A stretch of 64,000 nt of DNA from Minisyncoccota bacterium (GTDB taxonomy: Bacteria > Patescibacteriota > Microgenomatia > UBA1400 > PJMF01). The position numbers were made by a program, and so were the translations under genes. Where the stretch lies: contig JAAYYE010000013.1 in assembly GCA_012515515.1 (NCBI GenBank), forward strand, positions 2,293 to 66,292, read 5' to 3'. The notes under the pieces were generated by a model that was given only the letters and a program-made list of their open reading frames with translations, was not told where the DNA came from and did not search any database. This document shows positions 4,311 through 18,478 of the stretch, piece after piece (position 1 is the stretch's first letter; each line of letters starts with the position of its first letter).

Positions 4311-5075
4311 ATGAAAGAAAATACTCGAAAAATATTGCTATTCTTGTACCCAACTGAGCGATCCTCACCAGATACTCCAGACGAAAAAATTTTACTAAAC
4401 TTTCAACAGATTAGATTTCTATTACCTGACTTGTCTTTGACTGGCTTGCAATCATTACTCTTTTATTTAGAAAAAAGAGAATTGCTGATAAAACATTTCT
4501 TAAACAACGAAGCCCACTATAGCTTGACTAATTATGGCCAAGAGCAGTTAGAAAGGCAGTTTCCGGCTCTTTCTATTGCGCGACGCAATTGGCAAGGTCG
4601 CTGGACAATGATTTTGTTTTTAGAGGCAATCAAAACTGATCAAAATTTTCGTTACTTGCGAGGGTTTTTGCTAAAAAATGGCTGCTTAGCCCTTAATCGT
4701 GGGGTGTTTCTTTATCCTGGTCAATTGAGTGAGTATATTTTAGTCGAGTTGAACAGTCGTTATCGCCAGGCTGTGTTGGTATACGAGTTGGGTGAGTGTA
4801 TTGTGGGTGACGAGCAAATTACTATAGGACAGAAAATTGCCATAAATGACAGTTTAAAAGTTTACTCTGGTATTAGCAAAGAGCTTAACCAACTGATAGA
4901 CATTATTGGTTCAAGAAAAAAACTAAACAATCAGCAAAAAGTGGACTTTTATTCGATTTATAATCGGTTCATTAGCTTTTTGGCAGAAGATAGTGGTATC
5001 ACTGAACACTATTTCCCTCAAGTAGAAGGAGCATTAATAATCCTCTCAAAGCTACAAAAACTGCTCAAAATATAG
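4311..5075 (+). CDS. Hypothetical protein, possible PaaX-like winged-helix transcription regulator
   Basis: 254-aa ORF divergent from the giant surface gene. N-terminal region LLFLY...LTGLQSLLFYLEKRELL is reminiscent of PaaX-type wHTH. Similarity is weak and judged by eye. Confidence 0.3.
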   Translation: MKENTRKILLFLYPTERSSPDTPDEKILLNFQQIRFLLPDLSLTGLQSLLFYLEKRELLIKHFLNNEAHYSLTNYGQEQLERQFPALSIARRNWQGRWTMILFLEAIKTDQNFRYLRGFLLKNGCLALNRGVFLYPGQLSEYILVELNSRYRQAVLVYELGECIVGDEQITIGQKIAINDSLKVYSGISKELNQLIDIIGSRKKLNNQQKVDFYSIYNRFISFLAEDSGITEHYFPQVEGALIILSKLQKLLKI

Positions 5076-5580
5076 GATTTTGGGTTGTCTTCGTTTTAAT
5101 TCCTAAAGTTTCGCCTGGCTTTTGCCTGGTTAATTTAAAGAAAAATTGCCCTTGTACAGCCATTTATTTGCCAAATTTCGCAAATATTTTGGGTATAAAA
5201 TATTGTCTTTCAGCAATTTGGGTAGTAGTAAGCGAACTAATTACCCAAAGCAGATTGATTGTTTAGGATATATTTATATTACCGAAACTAGGTTTTGCGG
5301 TAATCCTTATACTTGATTATGCGGTAATAATGCTTTAAATATGCTTGAATATCTCTTTGCTTAATTATTATATTCTTTCGTGATAACTTTGCTTAATTCT
5401 TGGTTTTTTGTCCTTAGTTTTGGGTGTTTTTTTTCGATTATTTTAATTATCTGGTTTTTTGGCTTCGGTATATTTTTGCTTCAATTGTTTTTATTATATT
5501 TTCTATTTTTTACTAGTTTTTAAATATCTTATGGGATTTTAGCGTGAACTCTTTCTTAATGTCTTTATTTAAGTTAAAAT

Positions 5581-8436
5581 ATGTTTATGTCAAATGTTTT
5601 TTATGATCATCAAGCGATTGAAGAAAAGTGCTTGAGTTATTGGGACGAATTAGCTTTGTTTCAGGATGTCAATCTAGATTTAACGCCAAGTGACTTAGCT
5701 AAAAAAAGTTTTTTACTGTTTGCCTTCGTTTATCCTAGTGGGTCTGGTTTACATGTTGGCCATATTGAATCTAAAACCGCCCTTGATATTTTGGCTCGTT
5801 TTCAACGGATGAAGGGTCAGCAAGTTTATTTTCCAGTTGGCTGGGATGCTTTTGGTTTACCTGCAGAGAATTATGCGATCAAAACCGGCATTCATCCAAG
5901 TCAGACGACTAAGACAGCCATCGACACTTTTCGCCAGCAAATCAAGCGTTTAGCGATCTCTTATGATTTTGCCAACGAGCTGGCTACTAATGATCCAGAT
6001 TATTATCGCTGGACACAGTGGCTATTTTTGCAGCTACATCAAAAGGGATTAGCTTATCAGAAGCAGGGTCGAGTCAATTGGTGTCCAAGTTGTCAAACAG
6101 TCTTGGCCAATGAGCAAGTAGTTAATGGCTTGTGTGAACGTTGTGGGAGTGAAGTTGTCCAGAAAGATCTCAAACAATGGTATTTTAAGATTAAGGCTTA
6201 TCAAGATGAGCTGATCAGTGGTCTTGATGGTTTAGACTGGCCGACTGCCACCAAACAACAGCAGCTCAATTGGATAGGCCGACACGAGGGCGTTAATATT
6301 ACTTATCCAGTTTATGCTTATCCAGATGATGGGAAGAGTTTGGCTGATGGGGGAAATAGTTTGGCCAATGAGGGAAATGACTCGGCTGAAGAGGGGAGTA
6401 GCCTGGCTGAAGAGCAGCTTAATCAGGGTGAGGACACAGGAGCCAGTCGGGCGGGTGAGATTACCTGTTTTTCCAGCCGGCCAGATACTAATTTTGGCGC
6501 AACTTTTGTGGTCTTGGCGCCCGAGCATGCTTTGGCCAAGCAAATTGCAGAAAAAAATGAGCTAGTGGCGGAATACTTGGCTAAGGCAGAGAAAAAAACG
6601 GAGCTCGAGCGCCAACAAGAAGGCAAGCAGAAAAGTGGTGTTTTTACTGGTTTTTATGCTTTTAATCCTTTAAGCAAACGACGAATGCCAATTTGGGTGG
6701 CTGATTTTGTCTTAGCTAATTATGGCACTGGCGCGGTAGTTGGCGTGCCAGCCCATGACAAACGAGATTTCGAATTTGTAGAATTTGCCAATCGGCAAAA
6801 TCCTCGAGAACCCTTGTCGGTGATTCGTGTAGTGAGTGGCCCAGATGGCAATCAGGACGAGATTACTCAAGTTGAGCAAGTTTACAGTGGGGAAGGCCAA
6901 TTAATGAATTCAGCTTTTCTCAACGATTTAAGCGTGCCAGAAGCGATTGAGACAATGATCGATTATCTCGAGGAAAAAGGCTATGGCCAGCGCACAGTAA
7001 ATTATCAATTACGAGACTGGTTAATTTCTCGACAACGCTATTGGGGAACACCGATTCCCATTGTTTATGATCCAGAGGGCAATGCTCATCTGGTTAAAGA
7101 AGAACATTTGCCTTGGACTTTGCCAGACGATGTTGATTTTAAACCGACTGGTGAATCGCCCCTTAAATCTTCAAAAGAATTTCAAGAACGGGTGGAACGC
7201 CTATATGGCAAAGGCTGGACTCCTGAGTATGACACCATGGACACTTTTGTTGATTCGAGTTGGTATTTTTTGCGCTACTGCGACAGTCACAATCAGCAAG
7301 CTTTTGCTGATCCCCAGCGTTTGGAACAGTGGTTGCCGATTGATCTTTATTTAATTGGTCCAGAGCACATTGTTTTGCACTTACTTTATTCGCGCTTCTT
7401 TACTAAATTCTTGCGAGATGAAGGCCATTTAAAAATTAGCGAGCCTTTTGCCAAAATGCGTCACCAGGGCATGATTTTAGGCCCTGATGGTCAAAAAATG
7501 AGTAAGAGTAAGGGTAATGTGATTAATCCAGACCAAATAGTCGATCAGTATGGGGCTGATACGCTGCGGATTTATGAAATGTTTATAGGGCCACTTGAAG
7601 CTGATAAGCCTTGGGATGATCGAGCAGTTGCTGGAGTGGCTCGTTTTTTGCGTAAGTTATATCGTTTGGCAGTTGAGGAAATAGAGCTAATTGCTGAATT
7701 ATGGCCAGTGCTGGATGAAGAAAATAATGGCAATGGCCAAGCTGGAGGAAATAACCAAGCTGAGCTGAGCAGCCCTGAATTTGTGGGGAGAAAAGCCTTA
7801 GTGCAAAAATTGCAGCAAACGATTAAAAAACTCAGCGAGGATTTGCCTAAGTTGAAATTTAATACAGCCATTGCCTCCTTAATGGAATTCAACAATGTTT
7901 GGGAAAAAGCGAGTTTATCGAGGAATAGGCTTAAGACCTTGTCAGAAGAGAATGCTTCATCGAAAAGCACTTTCCACACCCCCTACCTATTGTTAAGTGC
8001 AGAGGAATTACTAAAATTAATAGCCATATTAGCCCCACTAGCGCCATTTTTAAGTGAGGAGCTATATGGACAAGCCAAGTATGCCTGGCAGAATCTAGCC
8101 GATCAGACTCTTGGAGAAATCAAGTGTGAAACAGGAGAAGCGCGAGCGCGCCGGCAAGCACTGGAAAGCCTGGAGTTTGCTGCCTCAATTCATTTGACGA
8201 CTTGGCCGACTTATGATCCCGCGCTCGCGCAAAGTGAGCAAATCACGCTGGCAGTGCAGGTCAACGGCAAAGTTCGCGCAGAATTAAAGCTTGATTATGA
8301 CTTGATCAACGATCAGGCCACAGTTCTAACTCAAGCCAAGGCTTTGCCGGCTTTAGAAAAATGGTTGCTGGGCCAGCAAATTATCAAAGAAATCTATGTT
8401 CCAGGTAAAATTGTGAATTTGGTGCTGGCTGCTTAA
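5581..8436 (+). CDS. leuS: Leucyl-tRNA synthetase
   Basis: 951 aa. Class I HIGH motif (HVGH) and KMSKS (GQKMSKSKGNV). Overall LeuRS-like sequence, including CP1-editing-region features. Confidence 0.9.
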   Translation: MFMSNVFYDHQAIEEKCLSYWDELALFQDVNLDLTPSDLAKKSFLLFAFVYPSGSGLHVGHIESKTALDILARFQRMKGQQVYFPVGWDAFGLPAENYAIKTGIHPSQTTKTAIDTFRQQIKRLAISYDFANELATNDPDYYRWTQWLFLQLHQKGLAYQKQGRVNWCPSCQTVLANEQVVNGLCERCGSEVVQKDLKQWYFKIKAYQDELISGLDGLDWPTATKQQQLNWIGRHEGVNITYPVYAYPDDGKSLADGGNSLANEGNDSAEEGSSLAEEQLNQGEDTGASRAGEITCFSSRPDTNFGATFVVLAPEHALAKQIAEKNELVAEYLAKAEKKTELERQQEGKQKSGVFTGFYAFNPLSKRRMPIWVADFVLANYGTGAVVGVPAHDKRDFEFVEFANRQNPREPLSVIRVVSGPDGNQDEITQVEQVYSGEGQLMNSAFLNDLSVPEAIETMIDYLEEKGYGQRTVNYQLRDWLISRQRYWGTPIPIVYDPEGNAHLVKEEHLPWTLPDDVDFKPTGESPLKSSKEFQERVERLYGKGWTPEYDTMDTFVDSSWYFLRYCDSHNQQAFADPQRLEQWLPIDLYLIGPEHIVLHLLYSRFFTKFLRDEGHLKISEPFAKMRHQGMILGPDGQKMSKSKGNVINPDQIVDQYGADTLRIYEMFIGPLEADKPWDDRAVAGVARFLRKLYRLAVEEIELIAELWPVLDEENNGNGQAGGNNQAELSSPEFVGRKALVQKLQQTIKKLSEDLPKLKFNTAIASLMEFNNVWEKASLSRNRLKTLSEENASSKSTFHTPYLLLSAEELLKLIAILAPLAPFLSEELYGQAKYAWQNLADQTLGEIKCETGEARARRQALESLEFAASIHLTTWPTYDPALAQSEQITLAVQVNGKVRAELKLDYDLINDQATVLTQAKALPALEKWLLGQQIIKEIYVPGKIVNLVLAA

Positions 8437-11709: not shown

Positions 11710-12347
11710 GCGGCTCTTTGAGCAAGTTACAAAATTAACTGTTGTTAACAACTTAGCAATGTGGGCAGAATTGCCAAATTATTACTCACAAAATACTATG
11801 CAACAATTTCCAAAAAAATGCAAGTTTTGTGTTCAATTTAAGAAATTTTATTAAAAAAGCCAAGCAAAAATGTGCTCAATTTTGCTGAGTTTATATAGCT
11901 AATTAAGCAAAAACTGAAGCCAATTAAGCAAAAAAACATAGGCCTTTAATTTTTATTTTTCAAAAAAAAGAATAAAAAATCATTGAAATTTGTAAAAAAA
12001 TGCTGTTTATTTAAACTCTTAAATTTGGTCAAAAGTGCTGTTTTGCAAAAAAAAGAGGGAAAATTAAAGAAATTTTACTCTGGAGATCGCAAAAAGCAGC
12101 TCAAGCCAGGTACTTGAGGAAAAATTTCTTGCCAAAAAAGCGCTAGCTATGACCGAAAAACGTCCGAATTAGTAAAAGCTAGTGTTTTGCTAAAATGACA
12201 AAATTGAGTAAATATTTTTTGTCATAAAACAAGGACTAATTTCTTGCATTAAAAAAAGGCTAAGAGTAAAAAATATACTCAAAACCATTCGCCTTTTATT
12301 AGCCAAATTATAAATTCGCTAATTTTCATTAATGCTACAATAGGCTT

Positions 12348-13739
12348 ATGTTTAAGCATCAATTGACTTACATTCCTTTAAAAAAATTTAAGCAACAGTT
12401 GCCATTACTAACGATTGACTTACCTGCTGCTGAGTCAGTGACGGTGATGTTTTTAGCTAATACCGGTTCGCGTTACGAGCCCATTGGCAAAGAGGGGATT
12501 GCTCACTTTTTTGAACACATGGTTTTTAAAGGCTCTGCCAATTATCCAAATGCCAAGATTTTAGCTAGAACCTTGGACAGTGTTGGCGCTGAGTTTAATG
12601 CTTTTACCAGTAAGGAATACACTGGCTATTATGTCAAAGCTGCAGCTAATAATTTTGCTTTAGCTCTAGATGTCTTGTCGGATATGCTTTTTGCTCCTTT
12701 GCTTAAACAAAGCGATATTGATCGGGAGAAAGGAGTGATCATTGAAGAATTAAACATGTACGTGGATACGCCCCAGGCTCATATCGCTAATGTTTTTGAA
12801 GAATTGTTGTTTGCCCAGGAATCACTGGCGCATAACATTGTTGGCAATAAGGCCAGTATTCGCTCGCTCACCAGTGCCGATTTTCAAAATTTTCTCAATA
12901 ATTTTTATGGTCCAGAAAATTTGCTCTTAGTGCTGGCTGGCGGTTTAGATAAAATTGCGCCAAAGCAAAAACTTTTAGCAGACAAAGTTGCTGCTACTTT
13001 TAACAAATTAAATAATAAGCGCGGGCAAAATCAAAAGTTGGCGGTGCCGAAAGTTGAACGCAAGGTGGAGGCTGAACAAAGCAAGGGCGCTCAGCCCACC
13101 ATGGTCAACGAAATCGCCTTTTCTAAGCGTCGATTCAAATTGGTCAAACGGGCTAGTGAACAAGCCCATTTTGTGATGGCTTGGCCAGCGCTAGATCTTC
13201 ATCATCCTGATCGTTATGTTTTGTCAGTTTTAGCTGTGATTTTAGGCGGCAACATGAGTTCTCGCTTATTTACTGAAGTTCGCGAAAAACGTGGCTTATG
13301 CTACTACGTGAGGAGTGATTTTGAATATTATCATGATTGTGGTTATCTAGGAGCGAGTGCCGGTGTCGATCCCAATCGCTTACGAGAGGCTATTCAGGCC
13401 AGTAAAGATGTTTTTTATAATTTAGCCAATAAACGGGGCCAAGTGGGAGAGACTGGCTTAATTAGCGCTGCAGAATTGCTACGTGCTCAAAATTACCTTA
13501 AAGGCAGAACCTTGCTCAATTTAGAGGAAAGCAATAATGTCGCCCAATTTTACGGCTTTAAACAGCTCTTAAATGACAAAATTCTGTCACCCAAGGAAGT
13601 TATAGCGAAAATCGAAGCGGTGACCGTCAAAGATCTTCAGCGATTGGCTAAACTTATTTTTCAAAAGGAACAGTTGCGCTTCGCGATTATTGGCAATTTT
13701 GCCAATGCTAAAGAAATTCAACAGTGGGTTTTTGCATAA
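12348..13739 (+). CDS. M16 (pitrilysin) family zinc peptidase
   Basis: Inverted zinc motif HFFEHMVFKGS (HxxEH) near the N-terminus. Size and layout typical of M16B. Confidence 0.7.
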   Translation: MFKHQLTYIPLKKFKQQLPLLTIDLPAAESVTVMFLANTGSRYEPIGKEGIAHFFEHMVFKGSANYPNAKILARTLDSVGAEFNAFTSKEYTGYYVKAAANNFALALDVLSDMLFAPLLKQSDIDREKGVIIEELNMYVDTPQAHIANVFEELLFAQESLAHNIVGNKASIRSLTSADFQNFLNNFYGPENLLLVLAGGLDKIAPKQKLLADKVAATFNKLNNKRGQNQKLAVPKVERKVEAEQSKGAQPTMVNEIAFSKRRFKLVKRASEQAHFVMAWPALDLHHPDRYVLSVLAVILGGNMSSRLFTEVREKRGLCYYVRSDFEYYHDCGYLGASAGVDPNRLREAIQASKDVFYNLANKRGQVGETGLISAAELLRAQNYLKGRTLLNLEESNNVAQFYGFKQLLNDKILSPKEVIAKIEAVTVKDLQRLAKLIFQKEQLRFAIIGNFANAKEIQQWVFA

Positions 13740-14175
13740 TTAGTTTAATTGTTTTGCTGAATTTTTCTTTAAATATTTATTGAATTTGTTAGTTTGTTTA
13801 GTTTGTTAGTAAATTTTTCGCTGAATTTTTTATTAATTTCATTAAATTTTTTCCCAATTAATGCGCTAATTGTTGTGCGAGCTCTTAATTTAATTAACTT
13901 ATTTTTGATTAGTATATTTACTTTTTGATATATTAATTAATATTTGGATTGATTAAAGTCGAGCAGGCAATTTAATCATCTTTTTTCGTATGCATTAATT
14001 AACCTTTTGATATTTTGTTTAATAAATTGATATATATAAATTGAAGGAATTTTTCTTTATTTAGCCACTTTTAGGCGCTCTTTAGCTAATAAAAAACTGC
14101 ACTTGGCTTTTAGGTAATTTTTTAAGATAATCGGCAGTAGACTAATTATTTTTAATTAAAAAAAGGAATTGCCTT

Positions 14176-14664
14176 ATGAAAACGAGTCGCACTGCAGTTT
14201 TAGTAAAACCCGATGGTTTACAAAGAGGTTTGATCGGGGAGATCATCAGTCGTTTTGAGCGCAAGGGCTTAAAATTAGTTGGCTTAAAAATGTTAAGAAT
14301 GGACGATCAGCAACTTGATCAATGGTATAGCGAACATAGAGAAAAAGCTTTTTTTCGCGACCTCAAGACTTTCATGGGCTCAATGCCGATAGTGGCCATG
14401 GTTTGGGAGGGAATTGATGCTGTGCCAGTAGTTAGATTATTGGTTGGTACCACTTTGGGTAGGCAAGCTGAAGGCGGCTCAATTCGAGGTGATTTTGGCA
14501 TGAGTCAGCAAATGAACTTAATTCATGCTTCTTCAAGTAATGAAGATGCCCAGCGCGAAATCGAAATAGTTTTTGGCAAAGACGAGCTCTTTCATTATCA
14601 CGGAGTTACCGAGGCCGTGATTTACGCTGAAGGAGAAGTTGAGCCTAGTGAAGATGATAGCTAA
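14176..14664 (+). CDS. ndk: Nucleoside diphosphate kinase
   Basis: NDK fold signature including the NLIHASSS region (active-site His) and the KPDG(L)QRGLIGEII N-terminus. Short acidic C-terminal tail. Confidence 0.85.
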   Translation: MKTSRTAVLVKPDGLQRGLIGEIISRFERKGLKLVGLKMLRMDDQQLDQWYSEHREKAFFRDLKTFMGSMPIVAMVWEGIDAVPVVRLLVGTTLGRQAEGGSIRGDFGMSQQMNLIHASSSNEDAQREIEIVFGKDELFHYHGVTEAVIYAEGEVEPSEDDS

Positions 14665-14698
14665 ATTAGGTCTTTACTAGCTTAGATCATAATCTTGA

Positions 14699-15367
14699 CT
14701 AATTTTTTTTATTAATCACTTTACTACCAACAAGGATTAGGGTAGAGGCCAAGAGCATTTCGGCAGTTTCCTCAATTGTCACCAGGCAAAAATAGCTGTT
14801 TTCGTTTAATGATCCTGTTGAGCTAAAAACTTCAGTTAATAAGACAGTGAATAAACTGAAACCACTGAGAGCTAAAATCCAAAAATTGTCTTTCATTTGG
14901 GATTGAAAATATCTTAACCAATAGCCATACCAAAGGCCAAAAATGAGGATGAAAGGCAAGTAATATAGAATCCACAAGGAAGATCGATAGCCCATTTTCA
15001 TTGAAGCCTCAACTATCCTGCTGGGATGAAAAAGATCAAAATATTCAAAAACTCGATAAATATTTTCGTGAATTTGGAGTAATTCATCCAAGCCTAGGTA
15101 AATGAGAAAAATCGACAAAGACAACAAGAAACTTTTCAAATTACCCTTTAGTAACTTCGAGAAATAAAACATAAAGAACAACAGACCAAACGTTATTAGT
15201 TTGAAAGATTGATAATAGGTTGGCAGGTTTTGCTCAAAATCTAAATGAAAAAAATGATTATATTTACCAAAGAAGAGGTGTATTAGCAGCACCAGCGAGT
15301 CAAGAAAGATTAAGTACAAAAATATTTTTTTGTTTTGCTTGAACAGCTTCTTAAGAAATACTTTCAT
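14699..15367 (-). CDS. Hypothetical polytopic membrane protein
   Basis: 222-aa ORF with several hydrophobic, aromatic-rich segments. No recognisable motif. Confidence 0.4.
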   Translation of the reverse strand: MKVFLKKLFKQNKKIFLYLIFLDSLVLLIHLFFGKYNHFFHLDFEQNLPTYYQSFKLITFGLLFFMFYFSKLLKGNLKSFLLSLSIFLIYLGLDELLQIHENIYRVFEYFDLFHPSRIVEASMKMGYRSSLWILYYLPFILIFGLWYGYWLRYFQSQMKDNFWILALSGFSLFTVLLTEVFSSTGSLNENSYFCLVTIEETAEMLLASTLILVGSKVINKKN

Positions 15368-15538
15368 CAGTTTATTTTAAATGAAAAATGCTTGATGAGC
15401 CAGGTGGTAATAATTGCTGCCTCTTTTTATAAATTGTAAGTGTTAATTGTATAAATAATGATTTGTTAATTGTTTAATATTATGATACTATATATTTAGC
15501 CTGGATAACATATACAATTGTTAATTAATTAAAATATT

Positions 15539-16708
15539 ATGAGCAATTATACATATAAAAATATACTTCTTGTGAACCCAGATTTCGATTCTAAATTAAC
15601 AAGTTTAATTATTGATTTAGATTATTTAAGAAAAAGAGAGATGCAGGGCACAACCCCAGCACCAATTTTTTTTCAATTGAAGAGTCTTTTTCACACCTTA
15701 GAAAGTATTGGCTCGGCTCGCATAGAAGGAAATCATACGACCATAGCAGAATTTATTGAGAATAAAATTCAAAAGAATAAAAAACTCTCTGATGAGAAAA
15801 TAAAAGAAATTGAAAACGTTGAAAAAGCATTAAACTTTATTGATAAAACAGTGCGAAAAAATTTTCGTATAGATGGTGAAGTAATAAGGCACTTACATTC
15901 AATTGTTGTGGATGGACTGTCATCAACTGGTGAGGGTGATAAAAATGCTGGAGAATACAGAGAAAATGATGTAAGAATTGCTGGATCTTTACATATTCCG
16001 CCACCCAAATCTGAAGTGAGATATTATATGAAGGAACTCACAGCGTTTATTAATAAAGAAGATGAGGCCAGATATGATTTACTCAAAATTGCTTTAACGC
16101 ATCATAGATTTGTTTGGATACATCCTTTTGGAAATGGAAACGGAAGAACTGTTAGGCTGCTAACTTATGCACAGCTGGTAAAAGCAGGATTTAATGTAGA
16201 AAGAGCTGGAAGAATTATTAATCCAACAGCTATTTTTTGTGGCGATAGAAATAAATACTATGATTATTTAGCTGCGGCTGATTTTGGAACTAGGGAGGGT
16301 TTATTACAGTGGTGCGAGTACGTGCTTACTGGTCTTAAGGAAGAAATAGAAAAAGTTGACAAACTAACAAATTATTCTTATTTATCAGAGAACATATTAT
16401 TGCCAGCAATAAATTTTTCTTTAGATAGAAAAGTTTTAAATGAAACTGAAGCAAGTATCTTAAGGATAGCTTTAAAAGTGAATGGAGGTAGAGGATTTCA
16501 GGCAAAAGATGTTGGGGGTGTTTTTCGAGGAAAACATATGTCTCATGTGTCTAGATATATTGGACGAATGAAGAATAGCCATTTAATTTCTCCAACAACT
16601 AAGAATGCAAGAAAATATTTGATTGATTTTCAAAATAATTATTTAATTAGAGGGGTTATTAAGATGTTAGATAATAACAACTTTTTACCACTTAAAAATG
16701 AAGTTTAG
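15539..16708 (+). CDS. Fic/Doc family protein (class II, N-terminal inhibitory motif), variant active-site motif
   Basis: Fic core HPFGNGNGRTVR (canonical HPFx[D/E]GNGRxxR, here N at the D/E position). Upstream inhibitory-helix motif SARIEGN ([S/T]xxxE[G/N]). Confidence 0.8.
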   Translation: MSNYTYKNILLVNPDFDSKLTSLIIDLDYLRKREMQGTTPAPIFFQLKSLFHTLESIGSARIEGNHTTIAEFIENKIQKNKKLSDEKIKEIENVEKALNFIDKTVRKNFRIDGEVIRHLHSIVVDGLSSTGEGDKNAGEYRENDVRIAGSLHIPPPKSEVRYYMKELTAFINKEDEARYDLLKIALTHHRFVWIHPFGNGNGRTVRLLTYAQLVKAGFNVERAGRIINPTAIFCGDRNKYYDYLAAADFGTREGLLQWCEYVLTGLKEEIEKVDKLTNYSYLSENILLPAINFSLDRKVLNETEASILRIALKVNGGRGFQAKDVGGVFRGKHMSHVSRYIGRMKNSHLISPTTKNARKYLIDFQNNYLIRGVIKMLDNNNFLPLKNEV

Positions 16709-16731
16709 TTTTTTAATGATGTTTTATACTG

Positions 16732-16803
16732 TGCCTCCACCAAGAGTCGAACTTGGATTTAAGGTTTAGGAAACCTTCGTTCTATCCGTTGAACTATAGA
16801 GGC
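16732..16803 (-). tRNA. tRNA-Arg (anticodon CCT)
   Basis: Reverse complement GCCTCTATAGTTCAACGGATAGAACGAAGGTTTCCTAAACCTTAAATCCAAGTTCGACTCTTGGTGGAGGCA folds as a cloverleaf. Anticodon loop TTCCTAA. No encoded CCA. Confidence 0.8.
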
Positions 16804-16813
16804 TATATTTTTG

Positions 16814-16887
16814 TCGGAGATGGCGGACTCGAACCGCCGACCTCGGCGTCCCGAACGCCGCACTCTAGCCATCTGAGCTAATCTCCG
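16814..16887 (-). tRNA. tRNA-Pro (anticodon CGG)
   Basis: Reverse complement CGGAGATTAGCTCAGATGGCTAGAGTGCGGCGTTCGGGACGCCGAGGTCGGCGGTTCGAGTCCGCCATCTCCGA. Anticodon loop TTCGGGA with G37. No encoded CCA. Confidence 0.8.
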
Positions 16888-16975
16888 GTTCTAAATTAAT
16901 TCTCCCTTATTAAACGCTGATCAAACACTTATTAAACAAATTTTGCTTTTAATTGCTGTTAATTTTTTACTAACC

Positions 16976-18478
16976 TTATTTTAGATTAATCGCGTATAGA
17001 TTAAATGGTGAGTCTGGGCTAAAGCTAGTAAAGATAATAATCTGACTGCCGTCTGGCCAGGGATAGACAAATTCGTCAATAAATGGACCCGAATAAATAA
17101 CCGTATTATTTTGCCCATCATATTCCATAATTTGTACTTTGCCATCTGCGACATAGAGTAAATGTTTGGAATCAGGAAACCACTGCAAACTGTTTAGACT
17201 AACTCCAGAATAATAATTAGCAAAATTAGCTGTTGTGGTAATCTTATCGATCGCCAAATCAGCTTGTAAACGCAAGAAAGATTCTGGAGAAGCTTCTAGT
17301 TGGCGCATTTTCTCACTGAACAAGTCGTCGCTAAGCAATTGTTTATTGAGGAAAGTCGATGTTGTTTCTTGAGCCTGTGTGCTAATTGCCTGTTGCTGAT
17401 TTTCCGACTCATCACCAACAACTCCTAACTTTTGTAAAGGAAAATTAGGGCGAACTTCTTCGTTTAAGACCAAAAAGTTTTTATCTTCTTCTCGATCATA
17501 AACATAAATATTGCCCGCAGTTAGATTTCTTTTTTCCTCTTGATTGCTGGTGGTTGGCAATGGAGGCACTAATCCTTCAGGTAAAGTAAGGTCAGCAGTG
17601 GCAGTATAAAGTAATCTCTTTTTATCTGGAGAGATATAAACATTTTTTGCAGATTCAGTTGCCACTTGGATGATTTCTTCAGGAAATTTTTCTAAGAACA
17701 AGCGTTCTTTTTGATAAATTTCTTCTTCCCAAGCTGATAAAGTTTTACTTCTTGAAAAAGAAATATCGCTTTGTTCTAGCAAAGAAGTTTTTCTACTAAG
17801 GGAAATTAAAAATTCTTTTCCGCCAAATTCTTCATCGACCAAAATCATTGCCTCTTGACTATCAGGAGACCAAATAATATGTGCTTTGTCTAGTTCTAAA
17901 GCAGGAATATCATCAGTAATTTGTCGAGGTCCACTTTGTAATGATAAAAAATTGCTAGTTAACTCTAATAAATAGAAGCCATTATTGGCTACCGAGCCAG
18001 CTTGGTTAACAAAAAATAAAATTTTTTGCCCATCGGGAGAAGGGTAGAGATTACTCACACCAGTAAAAGTAAGAGGTGAGAGGCTGGGAGCTGTAGGAAA
18101 CAAAGTAGCATTAGTTTGACTAACCAACTCTTTTTGCACCAGTAATTTTTTTTGCCAGGGTGAATAACCTTCTTTAACAATTTTTACCCAATATTCTCCT
18201 GGATCAATGTAGATAGTATCATCAGTGGCAGTGACCAGGCGATCGTTAATAAAAACTTGAGCGCCAGTGGGAAAAGAATTAGCATTTAACAAACCGGTGT
18301 TAGCCACCATGCCTTCTTTAGTAAATCGCCAACTACCACGAGCATAGCGAATGGCCAGAACACTACCCGCCACAATTATCAGCAAAGAAAAGAGGGCATA
18401 TCCCAATCTGCTGGCAAAAATTTTTTTAACCGAAGTAAGCGTTTTTTTGAAAAAGTTTTGTTTGTTATTCTTTGTCAT
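16976..18478 (-). CDS. Membrane-anchored PEGA-domain protein with PD40/WD40-like beta-propeller repeats
   Basis: N-terminal TM helix. PEGA-like AQVFINDRLVTATDDTIYIDPGEYWVKIVKEGYSPW. Repeated (W/F)SPD...(L/I)LY motifs typical of TolB-like PD40 blades. Confidence 0.5.
   Translation of the reverse strand: MTKNNKQNFFKKTLTSVKKIFASRLGYALFSLLIIVAGSVLAIRYARGSWRFTKEGMVANTGLLNANSFPTGAQVFINDRLVTATDDTIYIDPGEYWVKIVKEGYSPWQKKLLVQKELVSQTNATLFPTAPSLSPLTFTGVSNLYPSPDGQKILFFVNQAGSVANNGFYLLELTSNFLSLQSGPRQITDDIPALELDKAHIIWSPDSQEAMILVDEEFGGKEFLISLSRKTSLLEQSDISFSRSKTLSAWEEEIYQKERLFLEKFPEEIIQVATESAKNVYISPDKKRLLYTATADLTLPEGLVPPLPTTSNQEEKRNLTAGNIYVYDREEDKNFLVLNEEVRPNFPLQKLGVVGDESENQQQAISTQAQETTSTFLNKQLLSDDLFSEKMRQLEASPESFLRLQADLAIDKITTTANFANYYSGVSLNSLQWFPDSKHLLYVADGKVQIMEYDGQNNTVIYSGPFIDEFVYPWPDGSQIIIFTSFSPDSPFNLYAINLK

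What the first reader, a model, noticed from the sequence alone, without database searches (positions are those of the whole stretch)
15368..16730. Class-II Fic protein with non-canonical active-site motif (HPFGNGNGR) next to the tRNA-Arg/tRNA-Pro pair
The canonical Fic motif is HPFx[D/E]GNGRxxR. Here the acidic position is Asn (HPFGNGNGRTVR), while the N-terminal inhibitory motif SARIEGN is intact. Loss of the acidic residue changes substrate/nucleotide handling in other Fic proteins. The gene abuts the 3' end of tRNA-Arg, a classic island insertion point. Its upstream region (15400..15538) carries three TGTTAATTG repeats that may be operators.
Basis: partly seen in the sequence, partly recalled or inferred. 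Interest (0 to 1): 0.55.

Follow-up and report, generated by a model that had tools for sequence, protein, structure and literature searches.

The report
CccR-type Fic enzyme with own operator
This gene encodes an ordinary member of an already studied family of protein-modifying enzymes (Yersinia CccR) that also repress their own gene; the "odd" active-site residue is normal for the family, and the upstream repeats are very probably the repressor's binding sites.

Summary
ORF 15539..16708 encodes a 389-aa class II Fic protein with S59ARIEGN and H195PFGN199GNGRTVR206, convergent with tRNA-Arg(CCT).

The Asn is not an oddity of this gene. The protein matches crystallised Yersinia CccR (PDB 7XUX) end to end (E 1e-109, 45% identity). 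CccR has the identical motif and is reported to AMPylate FtsZ and to repress its own promoter through a C-terminal HTH domain. Of 239 homologues with a recognisable motif, 236 have Asn.

The repeats are two exact TGTTAATTG copies plus one TGTTAATTA. They are invariant in four orthologues (68-89% identity); three of these lie in unrelated contexts, and two are saturated at synonymous sites. Box 2 contains the -35 hexamer. Across 51 family loci, clade-specific boxes sit 22-23 and 64-66 bp apart, the putative recognition helix co-varies with box type, and the published CccR footprint covers the equivalent box pair.

Eight related genomes keep Mur-MreB-PEGA-tRNA-Pro-tRNA-Arg, and the seven whose contigs extend past tRNA-Arg lack the Fic gene. 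It is therefore an accessory cassette (15433..16708) in a variable spot, without integrase or att repeat.

Verdict: new member of a known kind, modest interest.

The parts
15433..15538 (+). Promoter/operator region that travels with the gene (left edge of the conserved cassette)
   Evidence: blastn homology to the 89% orthologue locus L004 begins at 15433, 8 nt before box 1, and runs through the gene. In the five-orthologue alignment A2 the invariant columns are the boxes and the -10 positions.
15441..15449 (+). Box 1, TGTTAATTG (about -58 relative to the inferred transcription start)
   Evidence: Exact copy. Invariant TGTTAATT in 5 of 5 orthologues. It lies 23 bp from box 2, the family-wide spacing.
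15464..15472 (+). Box 2, TGTTAATTG; the inferred -35 hexamer TTGTTA (15463..15468) lies inside it
   Evidence: Exact copy. TTGTTAATT is invariant in 5 of 5 orthologues, followed by a 17-nt spacer and a TAnnnT hexamer.
15486..15491 (+). Inferred -10 hexamer, TACTAT
   Evidence: It aligns with TATAAT in L005 and L006, TACTAT in L004 and TATCCT in L003. T, A and the final T are invariant. It fell below the 9-of-12 threshold of the consensus scan, so it is inferred from conservation only.
15519..15527 (+). Box 3, TGTTAATTA (8 of 9); in the inferred 5' UTR, 12 nt before the ATG and 55 bp from box 2
   Evidence: TGTTAA is invariant in 5 of 5 orthologues. The 55-bp spacing is shared by 6 loci of this clade, against a shuffle mean of 0.4.
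15539..16708 (+). CDS of the CccR-like class II Fic-wHTH protein (389 aa)
   Evidence: Pfam Fic. Full-length match to PDB 7XUX, CccR: E 1.1e-109, 45% identity. 100% identical to a 'Fic family protein [Candidatus Pacebacteria bacterium]'. dN/dS is 0.11 against L004.
15713..15733 (+). Inhibitory-helix motif S59ARIEGN (class II alpha-inh)
   Evidence: Read directly from the sequence. It aligns with CccR S59ARIEG, whose S59 and E63 contact R203 in the crystal. It is SARIEGN in about 108 of the best 120 homologues.
16121..16156 (+). Fic motif H195PFGN199GNGRTVR206, with Asn (16133..16135) at the metal-binding D/E position
   Evidence: Read directly from the sequence. Identical to CccR H192PFGNGNGRTVR203. 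Asn is present in 236 of 239 motif-bearing homologues.
16373..16690 (+). [quoted passage not shown]
   Evidence: It aligns with the CccR HTH domain, residues 276-380. The helix sequence co-varies with the box type across 40 family members. The helix boundaries are inferred from the alignment and were not modelled.
16731..16803 (-). tRNA-Arg(CCT), convergent with the Fic gene (context only; right edge of the variable spot)
   Evidence: ARAGORN and Rfam. The tRNA-Pro/tRNA-Arg pair is conserved next to the PEGA-protein gene in related genomes; tRNA-Arg is seen in seven of eight.
16813..16887 (-). tRNA-Pro(CGG) (context only)
   Evidence: ARAGORN and Rfam.

Best explanation
The gene encodes a CccR-type class II Fic enzyme, an AMP-transferase fused to a C-terminal HTH DNA-binding domain. 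It comes with its own promoter and operator as a compact 1.3-kb accessory cassette (15433..16708). Proposed mechanism, all inferred for this protein: (1) His195 and the GNGR anion hole transfer AMP from ATP to a Ser/Thr/Tyr hydroxyl of a target protein. Asn199 stands in for the usual metal-binding Asp/Glu, as in every member of this family. (2) Glu63 of the N-terminal SARIEGN helix contacts Arg206 and keeps the enzyme autoinhibited. (3) A dimer binds the direct TGTTAATTG boxes through the HTH domains. Boxes 1 and 2 are 23 bp apart and box 2 covers the -35 hexamer. Box 3 lies in the 5' UTR, 55 bp further on. Binding represses the protein's own transcription, so a potentially toxic enzyme is held at a low level. 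The physiological role and target in this Patescibacteria (CPR) host are unknown. I consider a self-regulated toxin-like, defence or competition module carried by horizontal transfer more likely than a housekeeping function.
For: Shown for the homologue CccR: AMPylation of FtsZ Thr8 that depends on His192; S59 and E63 contacting R203 in the crystal; the HTH domain (residues 201-380) binding and repressing PcccR, by DNase I footprint, EMSA, ITC and lacZ fusion. Shown here: full-length homology to 7XUX (E 1e-109, 45% identity) with identical Fic and inhibitory motifs; purifying selection, dN/dS 0.11. The three boxes and a TAnnnT -10 are the invariant columns of the upstream alignment of five orthologues. 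These comprise the window, L004 in a related NDK/tRNA context, and three loci in unrelated contexts; two of the loci are synonymously saturated. In 51 non-redundant family loci, exact 8-mer direct repeats occur at 22 bp (17 loci) and 23 bp (19 loci), against a shuffle mean of about 0.5 and maximum of 3-5, with further peaks at 55, 64-66, 78, 86-89 and 110 bp. The box sequence is clade-specific and co-varies with the putative recognition helix: H[VI]SRYI with TGTTAATTG, QxTYQ with AGATAAT, and so on. In the Y. pseudotuberculosis-complex cccR promoter the boxes GAGATAATC lie at -126, -103, (-39) and -16, and the published 46-nt footprint (-125..-80) contains the 23-bp box pair. Accessory status: the Fic gene is absent from the seven related genomes that show the region beyond the conserved PEGA/tRNA-Pro/tRNA-Arg block; an eighth contig ends before tRNA-Arg. 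GC is 0.319 against 0.371 for the window. Homologues sit at a prophage end in E. coli and in a P4-like island in Yersinia.
Against: No biochemistry exists for this protein. Activity, target, DNA binding and the transcription start are all inferred. The acidic residue replaced by Asn is described as the Mg2+ ligand that is critical for AMPylation and deAMPylation in other Fic enzymes, and the CccR paper never addressed how Asn substitutes for it. The boxes are direct repeats, whereas a two-fold symmetric dimer would be expected to read inverted repeats, and the CccR authors describe their operator as a palindrome. The window has three boxes, not the two pairs seen in many relatives. The CccR dimer-interface pair K175/D22 is R178/S22 here. 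The CccR target site, FtsZ Thr8, is reported as confined to Enterobacteriaceae.
Confidence: 0.72

Rival explanations
1. Physiological role: a single-gene anti-phage abortive-infection system of the SoFic kind. The autoinhibited and autorepressed Fic enzyme is unleashed on infection and AMPylates an essential host protein such as EF-Tu.
For: The PADLOC SoFic model hits at E 5.4e-46 over most of its length. SoFic-type proteins share the class II Fic + wHTH architecture and bind their own promoter. Sofic is reported to give phage protection by abortive infection. Distribution is accessory and the spot is variable. The E. coli homologue is cargo at the end of a prophage-like element at two or more chromosomal sites.
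Against: The NCBIfam SoFic equivalog scores 40.8 bits against a cut-off of 550, so this is not SoFic proper. There is no AS1-like small gene downstream: only 22 nt separate the stop codon from the tRNA. No CccR-clade member has been tested against phage. There were no homologues in the phage genome collection. This rival concerns the role and is compatible with the molecular mechanism given as best explanation.
Confidence: 0.3
2. Physiological role as published for CccR: a secreted interbacterial toxin and signal, delivered by a type VI secretion system, that AMPylates FtsZ of competitors.
For: CccR is the closest characterised homologue. In Yersinia the gene lies beside a PAAR-pyocin S effector/immunity locus.
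Against: The host is a roughly 0.8-Mb Patescibacteria genome. Such genomes are not known to encode T6SS (my knowledge; not tested on the whole genome), and no T6SS gene lies within 10 kb. The orthologues examined sit in diverse contexts without T6SS genes. The FtsZ Thr8 target is reported as restricted to Enterobacteriaceae. The FhuA receptor route is specific to Gram-negative bacteria.
Confidence: 0.05
3. The Asn substitution makes the Fic domain catalytically dead or changes its chemistry. The protein would then be mainly a transcription factor with the Fic fold as a sensor, or it would perform a reaction other than Mg2+-dependent AMPylation, for example with another nucleotide, another metal regime, or no deAMPylation.
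For: The acidic residue is the metal ligand, and its mutation (E115A) abolishes deAMPylation in EfFIC; it is called critical for AMPylation. Asn is conserved too strictly to be neutral drift: 236 of 239. The CccR study did not examine metal dependence or this residue.
Against: CccR, with the same HPFGNGNGRTVR motif, is reported to AMPylate FtsZ in vitro and in vivo in a His192-dependent way. All other catalytic residues (His, Phe, GNGR, the second Arg) and the inhibitory Glu are invariant, which argues for a working, regulated active site. An Asn side-chain carbonyl can still ligate Mg2+ (general chemistry; my knowledge).
Confidence: 0.2
4. The TGTTAATTG copies are chance AT-rich repeats or plain promoter elements (a -35-like TTGTTA and UP-like sequence), not binding sites of the Fic protein.
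For: Three copies with one mismatch allowed are reached by 74% of dinucleotide shuffles of this spacer. Box 2 contains a -35-like hexamer. No binding experiment exists.
Against: The boxes are invariant across orthologues whose synonymous sites are saturated. The 22-23 bp and 64-66 bp spacings recur in loci whose box sequences are quite different and not -35-like, such as GGAAGTAGT, TTGCAAAT and GAGATAATC. Box type co-varies with the HTH helix. The equivalent boxes in Yersinia lie inside the DNase I footprint. In the 64-kb window the only box pairs with these spacings are at this promoter.
Confidence: 0.05

Closest known systems
CccR (YPK_0951) of Yersinia pseudotuberculosis, PDB 7XUX (Wang et al., Nat Commun 2022, PMC9755527)
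   Same: Collinear over the full length (residues 3-384 against 3-378; E 1e-109; 45% identity). The Fic motif HPFGNGNGRTVR and the inhibitory motif SARIEG are identical. Both have a C-terminal HTH domain. Both have repeated boxes upstream on the same 23-bp lattice, with one box close to the start codon. Both are accessory and associated with mobile elements.
   Different: The box sequence differs (TGTTAATTG against GAGATAATC) and so does the recognition helix (HVSRYI against QITYQI). There are three boxes spaced 23 and 55 bp, against four spaced 23, 64 and 23 bp. The host is a CPR bacterium with no T6SS context. The dimer-interface K175/D22 pair is not conserved (R178/S22). The target cannot be assumed to be FtsZ Thr8.
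SoFic / EcSofic (Shewanella oneidensis SO_4266, PDB 3EQX; the PADLOC/DefenseFinder 'SoFic' defence gene)
   Same: Class II Fic with an N-terminal inhibitory helix and a C-terminal wHTH. SoFic forms a dimer, binds its own promoter and is toxic when derepressed. The PADLOC SoFic HMM matches at 5e-46.
   Different: Similarity to the SoFic structure entries is only distant (E about 6e-7 to 2e-5, over residues 152-263 in the best matches), and the NCBIfam equivalog is failed by a wide margin. A different dimerisation mode is reported for CccR. There is no AS1-like partner gene.
CbFic2 of Coxiella burnetii (PMC10628234)
   Same: Class II Fic with an N-terminal inhibitory helix and a C-terminal HTH domain; DNA binding modulates AMPylation and deAMPylation.
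   Different: CbFic2 has the canonical HPFDDGNGRIGR motif and binds DNA; its reported target is histone H3. It was not among the hits reported here.
Canonical bifunctional Fic enzymes FICD/HYPE and EfFIC
   Same: The Fic core aligns (E about 1e-12 to FICD), with the same inhibitory Glu logic.
   Different: They carry Asp/Glu at the metal-binding position, which is needed for AMPylation and deAMPylation. They have no HTH domain and no autoregulatory operator.

Membership tests
Fic/Fido superfamily (Pfam PF02661) | Profile match above the curated threshold | tested here: met
   66.6 bits against a cut-off of 24, residues 112-213.
Fic/Fido superfamily (Pfam PF02661) | Signature HxFx(D/E)GNGRxxR, including the acidic metal ligand | tested here: not met
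   H195, F197, G200-N-G-R203 and R206 are present, but position 199 is Asn, with no shifted D/E (position 198 is Gly). The same deviation occurs in 236 of 239 relatives and in CccR, so this is a family-level variant and not grounds for exclusion from the fold.
Class II Fic proteins | Inhibitory motif (S/T)xxxE(G/N) on the same chain, N-terminal to the Fic motif | tested here: met
   S59ARIE63G64N aligns with CccR S59ARIEG.
CccR-like Fic-HTH proteins | Full-length collinear homology to CccR, including the C-terminal HTH domain | tested here: met
   phmmer E 1.1e-109, query 3-384 against chain 3-378; BLASTP 45% identity over 381 aa. The HTH fold itself was taken from the published structure and not modelled here.
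CccR-like Fic-HTH proteins | Repeated operator boxes in its own promoter, bound by the HTH domain (autorepression) | tested here: inconclusive
   The in-silico side is met: conserved boxes, family-wide 22-23 and 64-66 bp spacing, helix/box co-variation, and equivalence to the footprinted Yersinia boxes. Physical binding and repression cannot be tested with these tools.
CccR-like Fic-HTH proteins | AMPylation of FtsZ Thr8 | not testable with these tools
   No ftsZ lies in the window. Thr8 is reported as limited to Enterobacteriaceae.
CccR-like Fic-HTH proteins | Secretion by a type VI secretion system | not testable with these tools
   No T6SS gene lies within 10 kb on either side. The whole genome was not available.
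SoFic defence system (PADLOC / NCBIfam NF046030) | Match to the family model at the family's own threshold | tested here: not met
   The PADLOC HMM hits at 5.4e-46, but the NCBIfam equivalog scores 40.8 bits against a cut-off of 550. This is a relative, not an orthologue.
SoFic defence system (PADLOC / NCBIfam NF046030) | Small downstream antitoxin gene (AS1), as described for EcSofic | tested here: not met
   Only 22 nt separate the stop codon (16708) from tRNA-Arg (16731).
tRNA-linked genomic island | Variable presence among relatives at a conserved tRNA flank | tested here: met
   Seven related genomes that keep PEGA/tRNA-Pro/tRNA-Arg lack the Fic gene, and the content beyond tRNA-Arg differs in the four loci examined (window, L010, L013, L014); an eighth contig (L011) ends before tRNA-Arg. 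L014 shows tRNA-Arg followed by NDK. L004 shows NDK, Fic, then tRNAs.
tRNA-linked genomic island | Integrase gene and a direct repeat of the tRNA 3' end (att sites) | tested here: not met
   There is no repeat of the tRNA-Arg 3' end in 12000..17000. The neighbours are NDK, a 222-aa membrane protein and the PEGA protein; none is an integrase.

The most novel reading that the evidence does not exclude
HPFxNGNGR Fic-HTH proteins (CccR-like; thousands of members from Patescibacteria to Enterobacteriaceae) would be self-contained mobile 'operator-promoter-enzyme' cassettes. Their repressor domain would read a lattice of direct repeats (pairs 22-23 bp apart, pairs 64-66 bp apart, flanking the core promoter) and not the palindrome proposed for CccR, with a recognition-helix/box specificity code. 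The conserved Asn in place of the Mg2+-binding acid would give them a distinct metal regime or AMPylation/deAMPylation balance. In T6SS-less hosts such as this CPR bacterium they would act as single-gene defence or addiction modules and not as secreted effectors.
Probability: 0.3. Interest if true: 0.55.

Novelty: new member of a known kind. Interest (0 to 1): 0.3.

Why it matters
For this window, it matters little. The gene can be annotated with confidence as a CccR-family class II Fic-HTH protein with an autoregulatory operator, and the "non-canonical" Asn should not be read as a lesion or a unique innovation.

Three wider points are worth keeping.

1. An acidic metal ligand regarded as essential in Fic catalysis is replaced by Asn throughout a very large family whose one studied member is reported active. 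The biochemical consequence has not been examined.
2. The family's operators follow a conserved direct-repeat lattice that co-varies with the HTH helix. The published CccR footprint fits this lattice better than the palindrome reading. This gives a ready-made specificity code for experiments.
3. The family occurs in CPR bacteria, at a prophage end in E. coli and in a P4-like island in Yersinia. This argues that T6SS delivery is not its general mode of action.

Tried and rejected
- **att site search.** A search for a direct repeat of the tRNA-Arg 3' end in 12000..17000 found none; only AT-rich chance repeats came up.
- **Copy-number statistic.** Counting copies of a 9-mer with one mismatch allowed against shuffles did not discriminate in AT-rich spacers: only 16 of 52 loci reached p<=0.05, and the window gave 0.74. 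I replaced it with the spacing histogram of exact 8-mers, which gave sharp peaks.
- **Consensus promoter scan.** It returned only a hit whose -10 overlaps the start codon. I rejected that hit in favour of the conserved TTGTTA-N17-TAnnnT.
- **Terminator-like hairpin at 15402..15422.** It lies outside the block homologous to L004 and has no upstream + strand gene, so I treat it as chance.
- **Phage and plasmid collections.** There was no hit in phage genomes and only three plasmid hits, so there is no evidence of phage or plasmid carriage for this clade.
- **Other regulon targets.** No other box pair at family spacings exists in the window.
- **Rfam.** The region holds only the two tRNAs.
- **ftsZ.** It is not in the window.
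- **The 222-aa membrane protein as a functional partner.** Rejected: its orthologue in L013 is not next to a Fic gene, and L004 has the Fic gene without it.
- **Structure prediction.** Not run, because the full-length match to a crystal structure made it unnecessary.
Full report
**1. What is in the sequence**

ORF 15539..16708 (+) encodes 389 aa. Pfam assigns a Fic domain (66.6 bits, cut-off 24) and a sub-threshold Fic_N.

The inhibitory motif S59ARIEGN lies at nt 15713..15733. The Fic motif H195PFGN199GNGRTVR206 lies at nt 16121..16156. In the alignment to human FICD, Asn199 sits under the Asp of HPFIDGNGR, so the acidic residue is absent and not shifted.

The gene is convergent with tRNA-Arg(CCT) (16731..16803, -), followed by tRNA-Pro(CGG) (16813..16887, -).

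Upstream there are two exact TGTTAATTG copies (15441, 15464) and one TGTTAATTA (15519). The statement "three TGTTAATTG repeats" is therefore slightly generous.

**2. The protein belongs to a characterised family**

The protein matches PDB 7XUX chain A end to end: E 1.1e-109, residues 3-384 against 3-378, 45% identity.

7XUX is CccR (YPK_0951) of Yersinia pseudotuberculosis (PMC9755527). The paper gives its motif as H192PFGNGNGRTVR203 and its inhibitory helix as S59ARIEG. Both are identical to the window protein.

The paper reports the following:
- His192-dependent AMPylation of FtsZ Thr8.
- Contacts of S59 and E63 with R203 in the crystal.
- A C-terminal HTH domain that binds and represses the cccR promoter.

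The exact window protein is already in public databases as "Fic family protein [Candidatus Pacebacteria bacterium]", on a contig of about 804 kb.

**3. The Asn is a family hallmark**

Among the best 120 homologues of the window protein, 118 of the 119 with a recognisable motif have HPFxNGNGR, and one has Asp. Among the best 120 homologues of CccR, 118 have Asn, one has Tyr and one has no recognisable motif.

The family is large: more than 5,000 clusters at 90% identity pass E 1e-10, or 1e-60 for the CccR query. It spans Patescibacteria, Bacteroidota, Syntrophales, Thermodesulfovibrionales and many Enterobacterales.

HPFxNGNGR also occurs in Fic proteins only 24-35% identical to this one. That sample was selected with this very pattern, so it shows existence, not frequency.

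All other catalytic positions and the inhibitory Glu are invariant in a 29-sequence alignment. The gene is under purifying selection, with dN/dS 0.11 against its 89% orthologue.

The replaced acidic residue is described as the Mg2+ ligand needed for AMPylation and deAMPylation in EfFIC and FICD. The CccR paper quotes the canonical motif and does not comment on the Asn. How the family manages without a carboxylate is therefore an open, if modest, biochemical question. It is not a feature specific to this locus.

**4. The repeats are very probably operators**

I fetched the four closest orthologues (89, 75, 74 and 68% identity). The three more distant ones lie in unrelated gene neighbourhoods. 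All carry three TGTTAATT boxes in the same places.

In the alignment of the five upstream regions, the invariant columns are these:
- Box 1 (TGTTAATT).
- Box 2 (TTGTTAATT).
- Box 3 (TGTTAA).
- The T, A and final T of a hexamer placed 17 nt after TTGTTA.

That hexamer reads TATAAT in two orthologues, TACTAT here and in L004, and TATCCT in L003. Synonymous sites are saturated against two of these orthologues (pS about 0.8), so the boxes are under constraint.

Inferred layout in the window:
- Box 1 at about -58.
- Box 2 containing the -35 hexamer (15463..15468).
- The -10 hexamer at 15486..15491.
- Box 3 at about +21 to +29 in a 5' UTR of about 40 nt.

The block homologous to the 89% orthologue starts at 15433, 8 nt before box 1. 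The operator therefore travels with the gene.

**5. The architecture is family-wide**

A metagenome scan gave 80 further loci. In the 170 nt upstream of the start codon, almost every one carries three or four direct copies of a clade-specific box. The box types seen were:
- TGTTAATTG
- TGTTAAAT(G/C)
- TTGCAAAT
- GATGTAAAATG
- GTTACA
- (C/G)AGATAAT
- GGAAGTAGT
- CTTTAAATAATGA
- GTGAAATA

A simple copy-count statistic was not discriminating in AT-rich DNA, but the spacings are. Over 51 non-redundant loci, exact 8-mer direct repeats occur at 22 bp in 17 loci and at 23 bp in 19 loci. Shuffles give a mean of about 0.5 and a maximum of 3-5. Further peaks lie at 64-66, 86-89 and 110 bp, and at 55 and 78 bp for the window's clade.

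The general plan is [box-22/23-box]-64/66-[box-22/23-box] flanking the core promoter, with the last box often touching the start codon. The window has 23 + 55, which is one helical turn shorter, and lacks a fourth box.

The segment aligned to window residues 334-346 co-varies with box type:

| Box type | Helix segment |
|---|---|
| TGTTAATTG | H[VI]SRYI |
| TGTTAAAT | E[IV]SRQI or QRSRII |
| TTGCAAAT | EISR[LI]I |
| AGATAAT | Q[IR]TYQ[IV] |
| GGAAGTA | KK[AS]xxM |

This segment is the putative recognition helix of the HTH domain.

**6. Link to experiment**

I recovered the promoter of the exact CccR protein from a Y. pseudotuberculosis-complex genome. GAGATAATC lies at -126, -103 and -16, and AAGATAATG lies at -39, giving spacings of 23, 64 and 23 bp.

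The published 46-nt DNase I footprint is AGATAATCAT-N26-ATGATAATCT. It corresponds to -125..-80 and contains the box 1/box 2 pair. The "N26" includes a full GAGATAATCT.

The published palindrome reading is therefore one possible description. The comparative data favour direct repeats 23 bp apart; this is my interpretation and is untested.

The Y. frederiksenii orthologue has four perfect boxes at -125, -102, -38 and -15. Window boxes 1 and 2 are thus positional equivalents of sites known to be protected by CccR.

**7. Genomic context**

Eight species-representative genomes of related Patescibacteria keep Mur ligase, MreB, the PEGA protein and tRNA-Pro(CGG). PEGA-protein identity is 59-94%. Seven of them also show tRNA-Arg(CCT); the eighth contig, L011, ends just after tRNA-Pro. 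None has the Fic gene.

What follows tRNA-Arg differs between genomes:
- L014: NDK and an M16 peptidase. The only ORF of 40 aa or more that fits in the gap is an 84-aa one (7660..7914), and tblastn finds no Fic.
- L010: an FtsX-like/ABC pair.
- L013, the closest at 94%: large membrane proteins and then the orthologue of the window's 222-aa membrane protein. L013 also has a 1.3-kb gap containing a long ORF between the two tRNAs.
- L004, which holds the 89% Fic orthologue: NDK, Fic, tRNA-Arg(CCG), tRNA-Arg(CCT), tRNA-Pro.

The Fic cassette is thus accessory and sits in a recombination-prone spot beside the tRNAs. However, there is no integrase and no repeat of the tRNA 3' end. The GC dip is only mild: 0.319 against 0.371 for the window and 0.43 for NDK.

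Elsewhere the family is cargo of mobile elements. In E. coli the gene follows portal, HNH, TerS and TerL at the end of a prophage-like element, at two or more chromosomal sites. In Yersinia it lies in a P4-like island (D5 primase, Gp49, AlpA) next to a PAAR-pyocin S effector.

There were few plasmid copies and none in the phage collection.

**8. Comparison with known systems and verdict**

The protein works like CccR and, by sequence, is a member of the CccR family. The features I could test are met:
- Full-length homology.
- Identical catalytic and inhibitory motifs.
- The HTH domain.
- Operator boxes on the same lattice.

T6SS secretion and FtsZ Thr8 targeting cannot be tested. They are unlikely to apply in a CPR host.

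It is a distant relative of SoFic. The PADLOC model hits at 5e-46, but the NCBIfam equivalog is failed at 40.8 against 550 bits. Defence-annotation pipelines will probably label it "SoFic". It has no AS1-like partner gene.

The molecular mechanism is well supported by homology and comparative evidence: an autoinhibited AMP-transferase that represses its own promoter through the three boxes. The physiological role is open; it could be defence, competition, or an endogenous reversible regulator such as SoFic acting on EF-Tu.

The finding is real but largely explained. It is a new member of a known kind, with modest interest that rests on three side results: the unexamined family-wide Asn, the direct-repeat operator lattice, and the helix/box co-variation.

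Noticed in passing
L100 2731..3003 (Y. pseudotuberculosis-complex cccR promoter); L095 4670..5003: The published CccR operator 'AGATAATCAT-N26-ATGATAATCT' (a palindrome with a 26-bp spacer) contains a complete third GAGATAATCT inside the 'spacer'. The promoter actually carries direct GAGATAATC boxes at -126, -103, (-39) and -16, spaced 23, 64 and 23 bp, the same lattice as in the rest of the family.
   Followed up: yes
L097, L098 and L099, gene at 5001..6143: The E. coli CccR homologue (73% identical to CccR) is the last gene of a prophage-like element (portal, HNH, small and large terminase, a 97-aa ORF, then Fic). The element is inserted at two or more chromosomal sites: next to a comM-like Mg-chelatase gene and next to proVWX-like genes.
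   Followed up: partly
L013 7624..8893 and L008 7639..8916: In two relatives the tRNA-Pro and tRNA-Arg genes, 9 nt apart in the window, are separated by about 1.3 kb. In L013 the gap contains a long ORF for a polytopic membrane protein of up to 442 aa. This is another sign that the tRNA pair marks a variable spot.
   Followed up: no
window 14699..15367 (-): This 222-aa multi-pass membrane protein has no significant Pfam family (DUF2162 only at E 0.008). It also moves between contexts: its 86% orthologue in L013 lies 2.9 kb from tRNA-Arg, next to different genes. It is absent from L004 and L014. GC is 0.326, as low as that of the Fic gene.
   Followed up: partly
window 15402..15422 (+): A terminator-like hairpin with a T-run (AGGTGGTAATAATTGCTGCCT CTTTTTATAA) lies between the divergent membrane-protein and Fic genes. 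It has no upstream + strand gene and sits just outside the block homologous to L004. It may be a relic of an earlier arrangement, or chance.
   Followed up: no
window 15463..15485 and 15518..15542: Box 2 and box 3 are each followed, about 12-14 nt later, by AATATTATGA (10 of 10 identical). Box 2 therefore precedes a 5-codon mini-ORF (ATG at 15482), just as box 3 precedes the real start codon. L004 shows a similar (A)ATTATG after both boxes. This may be a duplicated box-plus-start module, or chance in AT-rich DNA.
   Followed up: no
window 19447, 38701, 53345 (+) and 62631 (-): Four further exact TGTTAATTG copies occur in the window. With the promoter pair that makes 6 in total against 1.5 expected, and 0 of 100 shuffles reach 6. 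None has a partner at the family spacings, so there is no evidence that they are operator sites.
   Followed up: partly
L017 and L020 (start codon region); L031, L039, L050, L070: In several family members the last operator box overlaps or contains the start codon (for example TGTTAAATG, where the final ATG is the start). No Shine-Dalgarno sequence is evident. Repressor binding there could block translation initiation as well as transcription.
   Followed up: no
motif list (for example HPFDNGNGRTVR in 12 of the best 120 homologues): A minority of family members carry Asp at the x position immediately before the conserved Asn (HPF-D-N-GNGR). This could be an acidic residue shifted by one position in those proteins. 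The window protein has Gly there.
   Followed up: no
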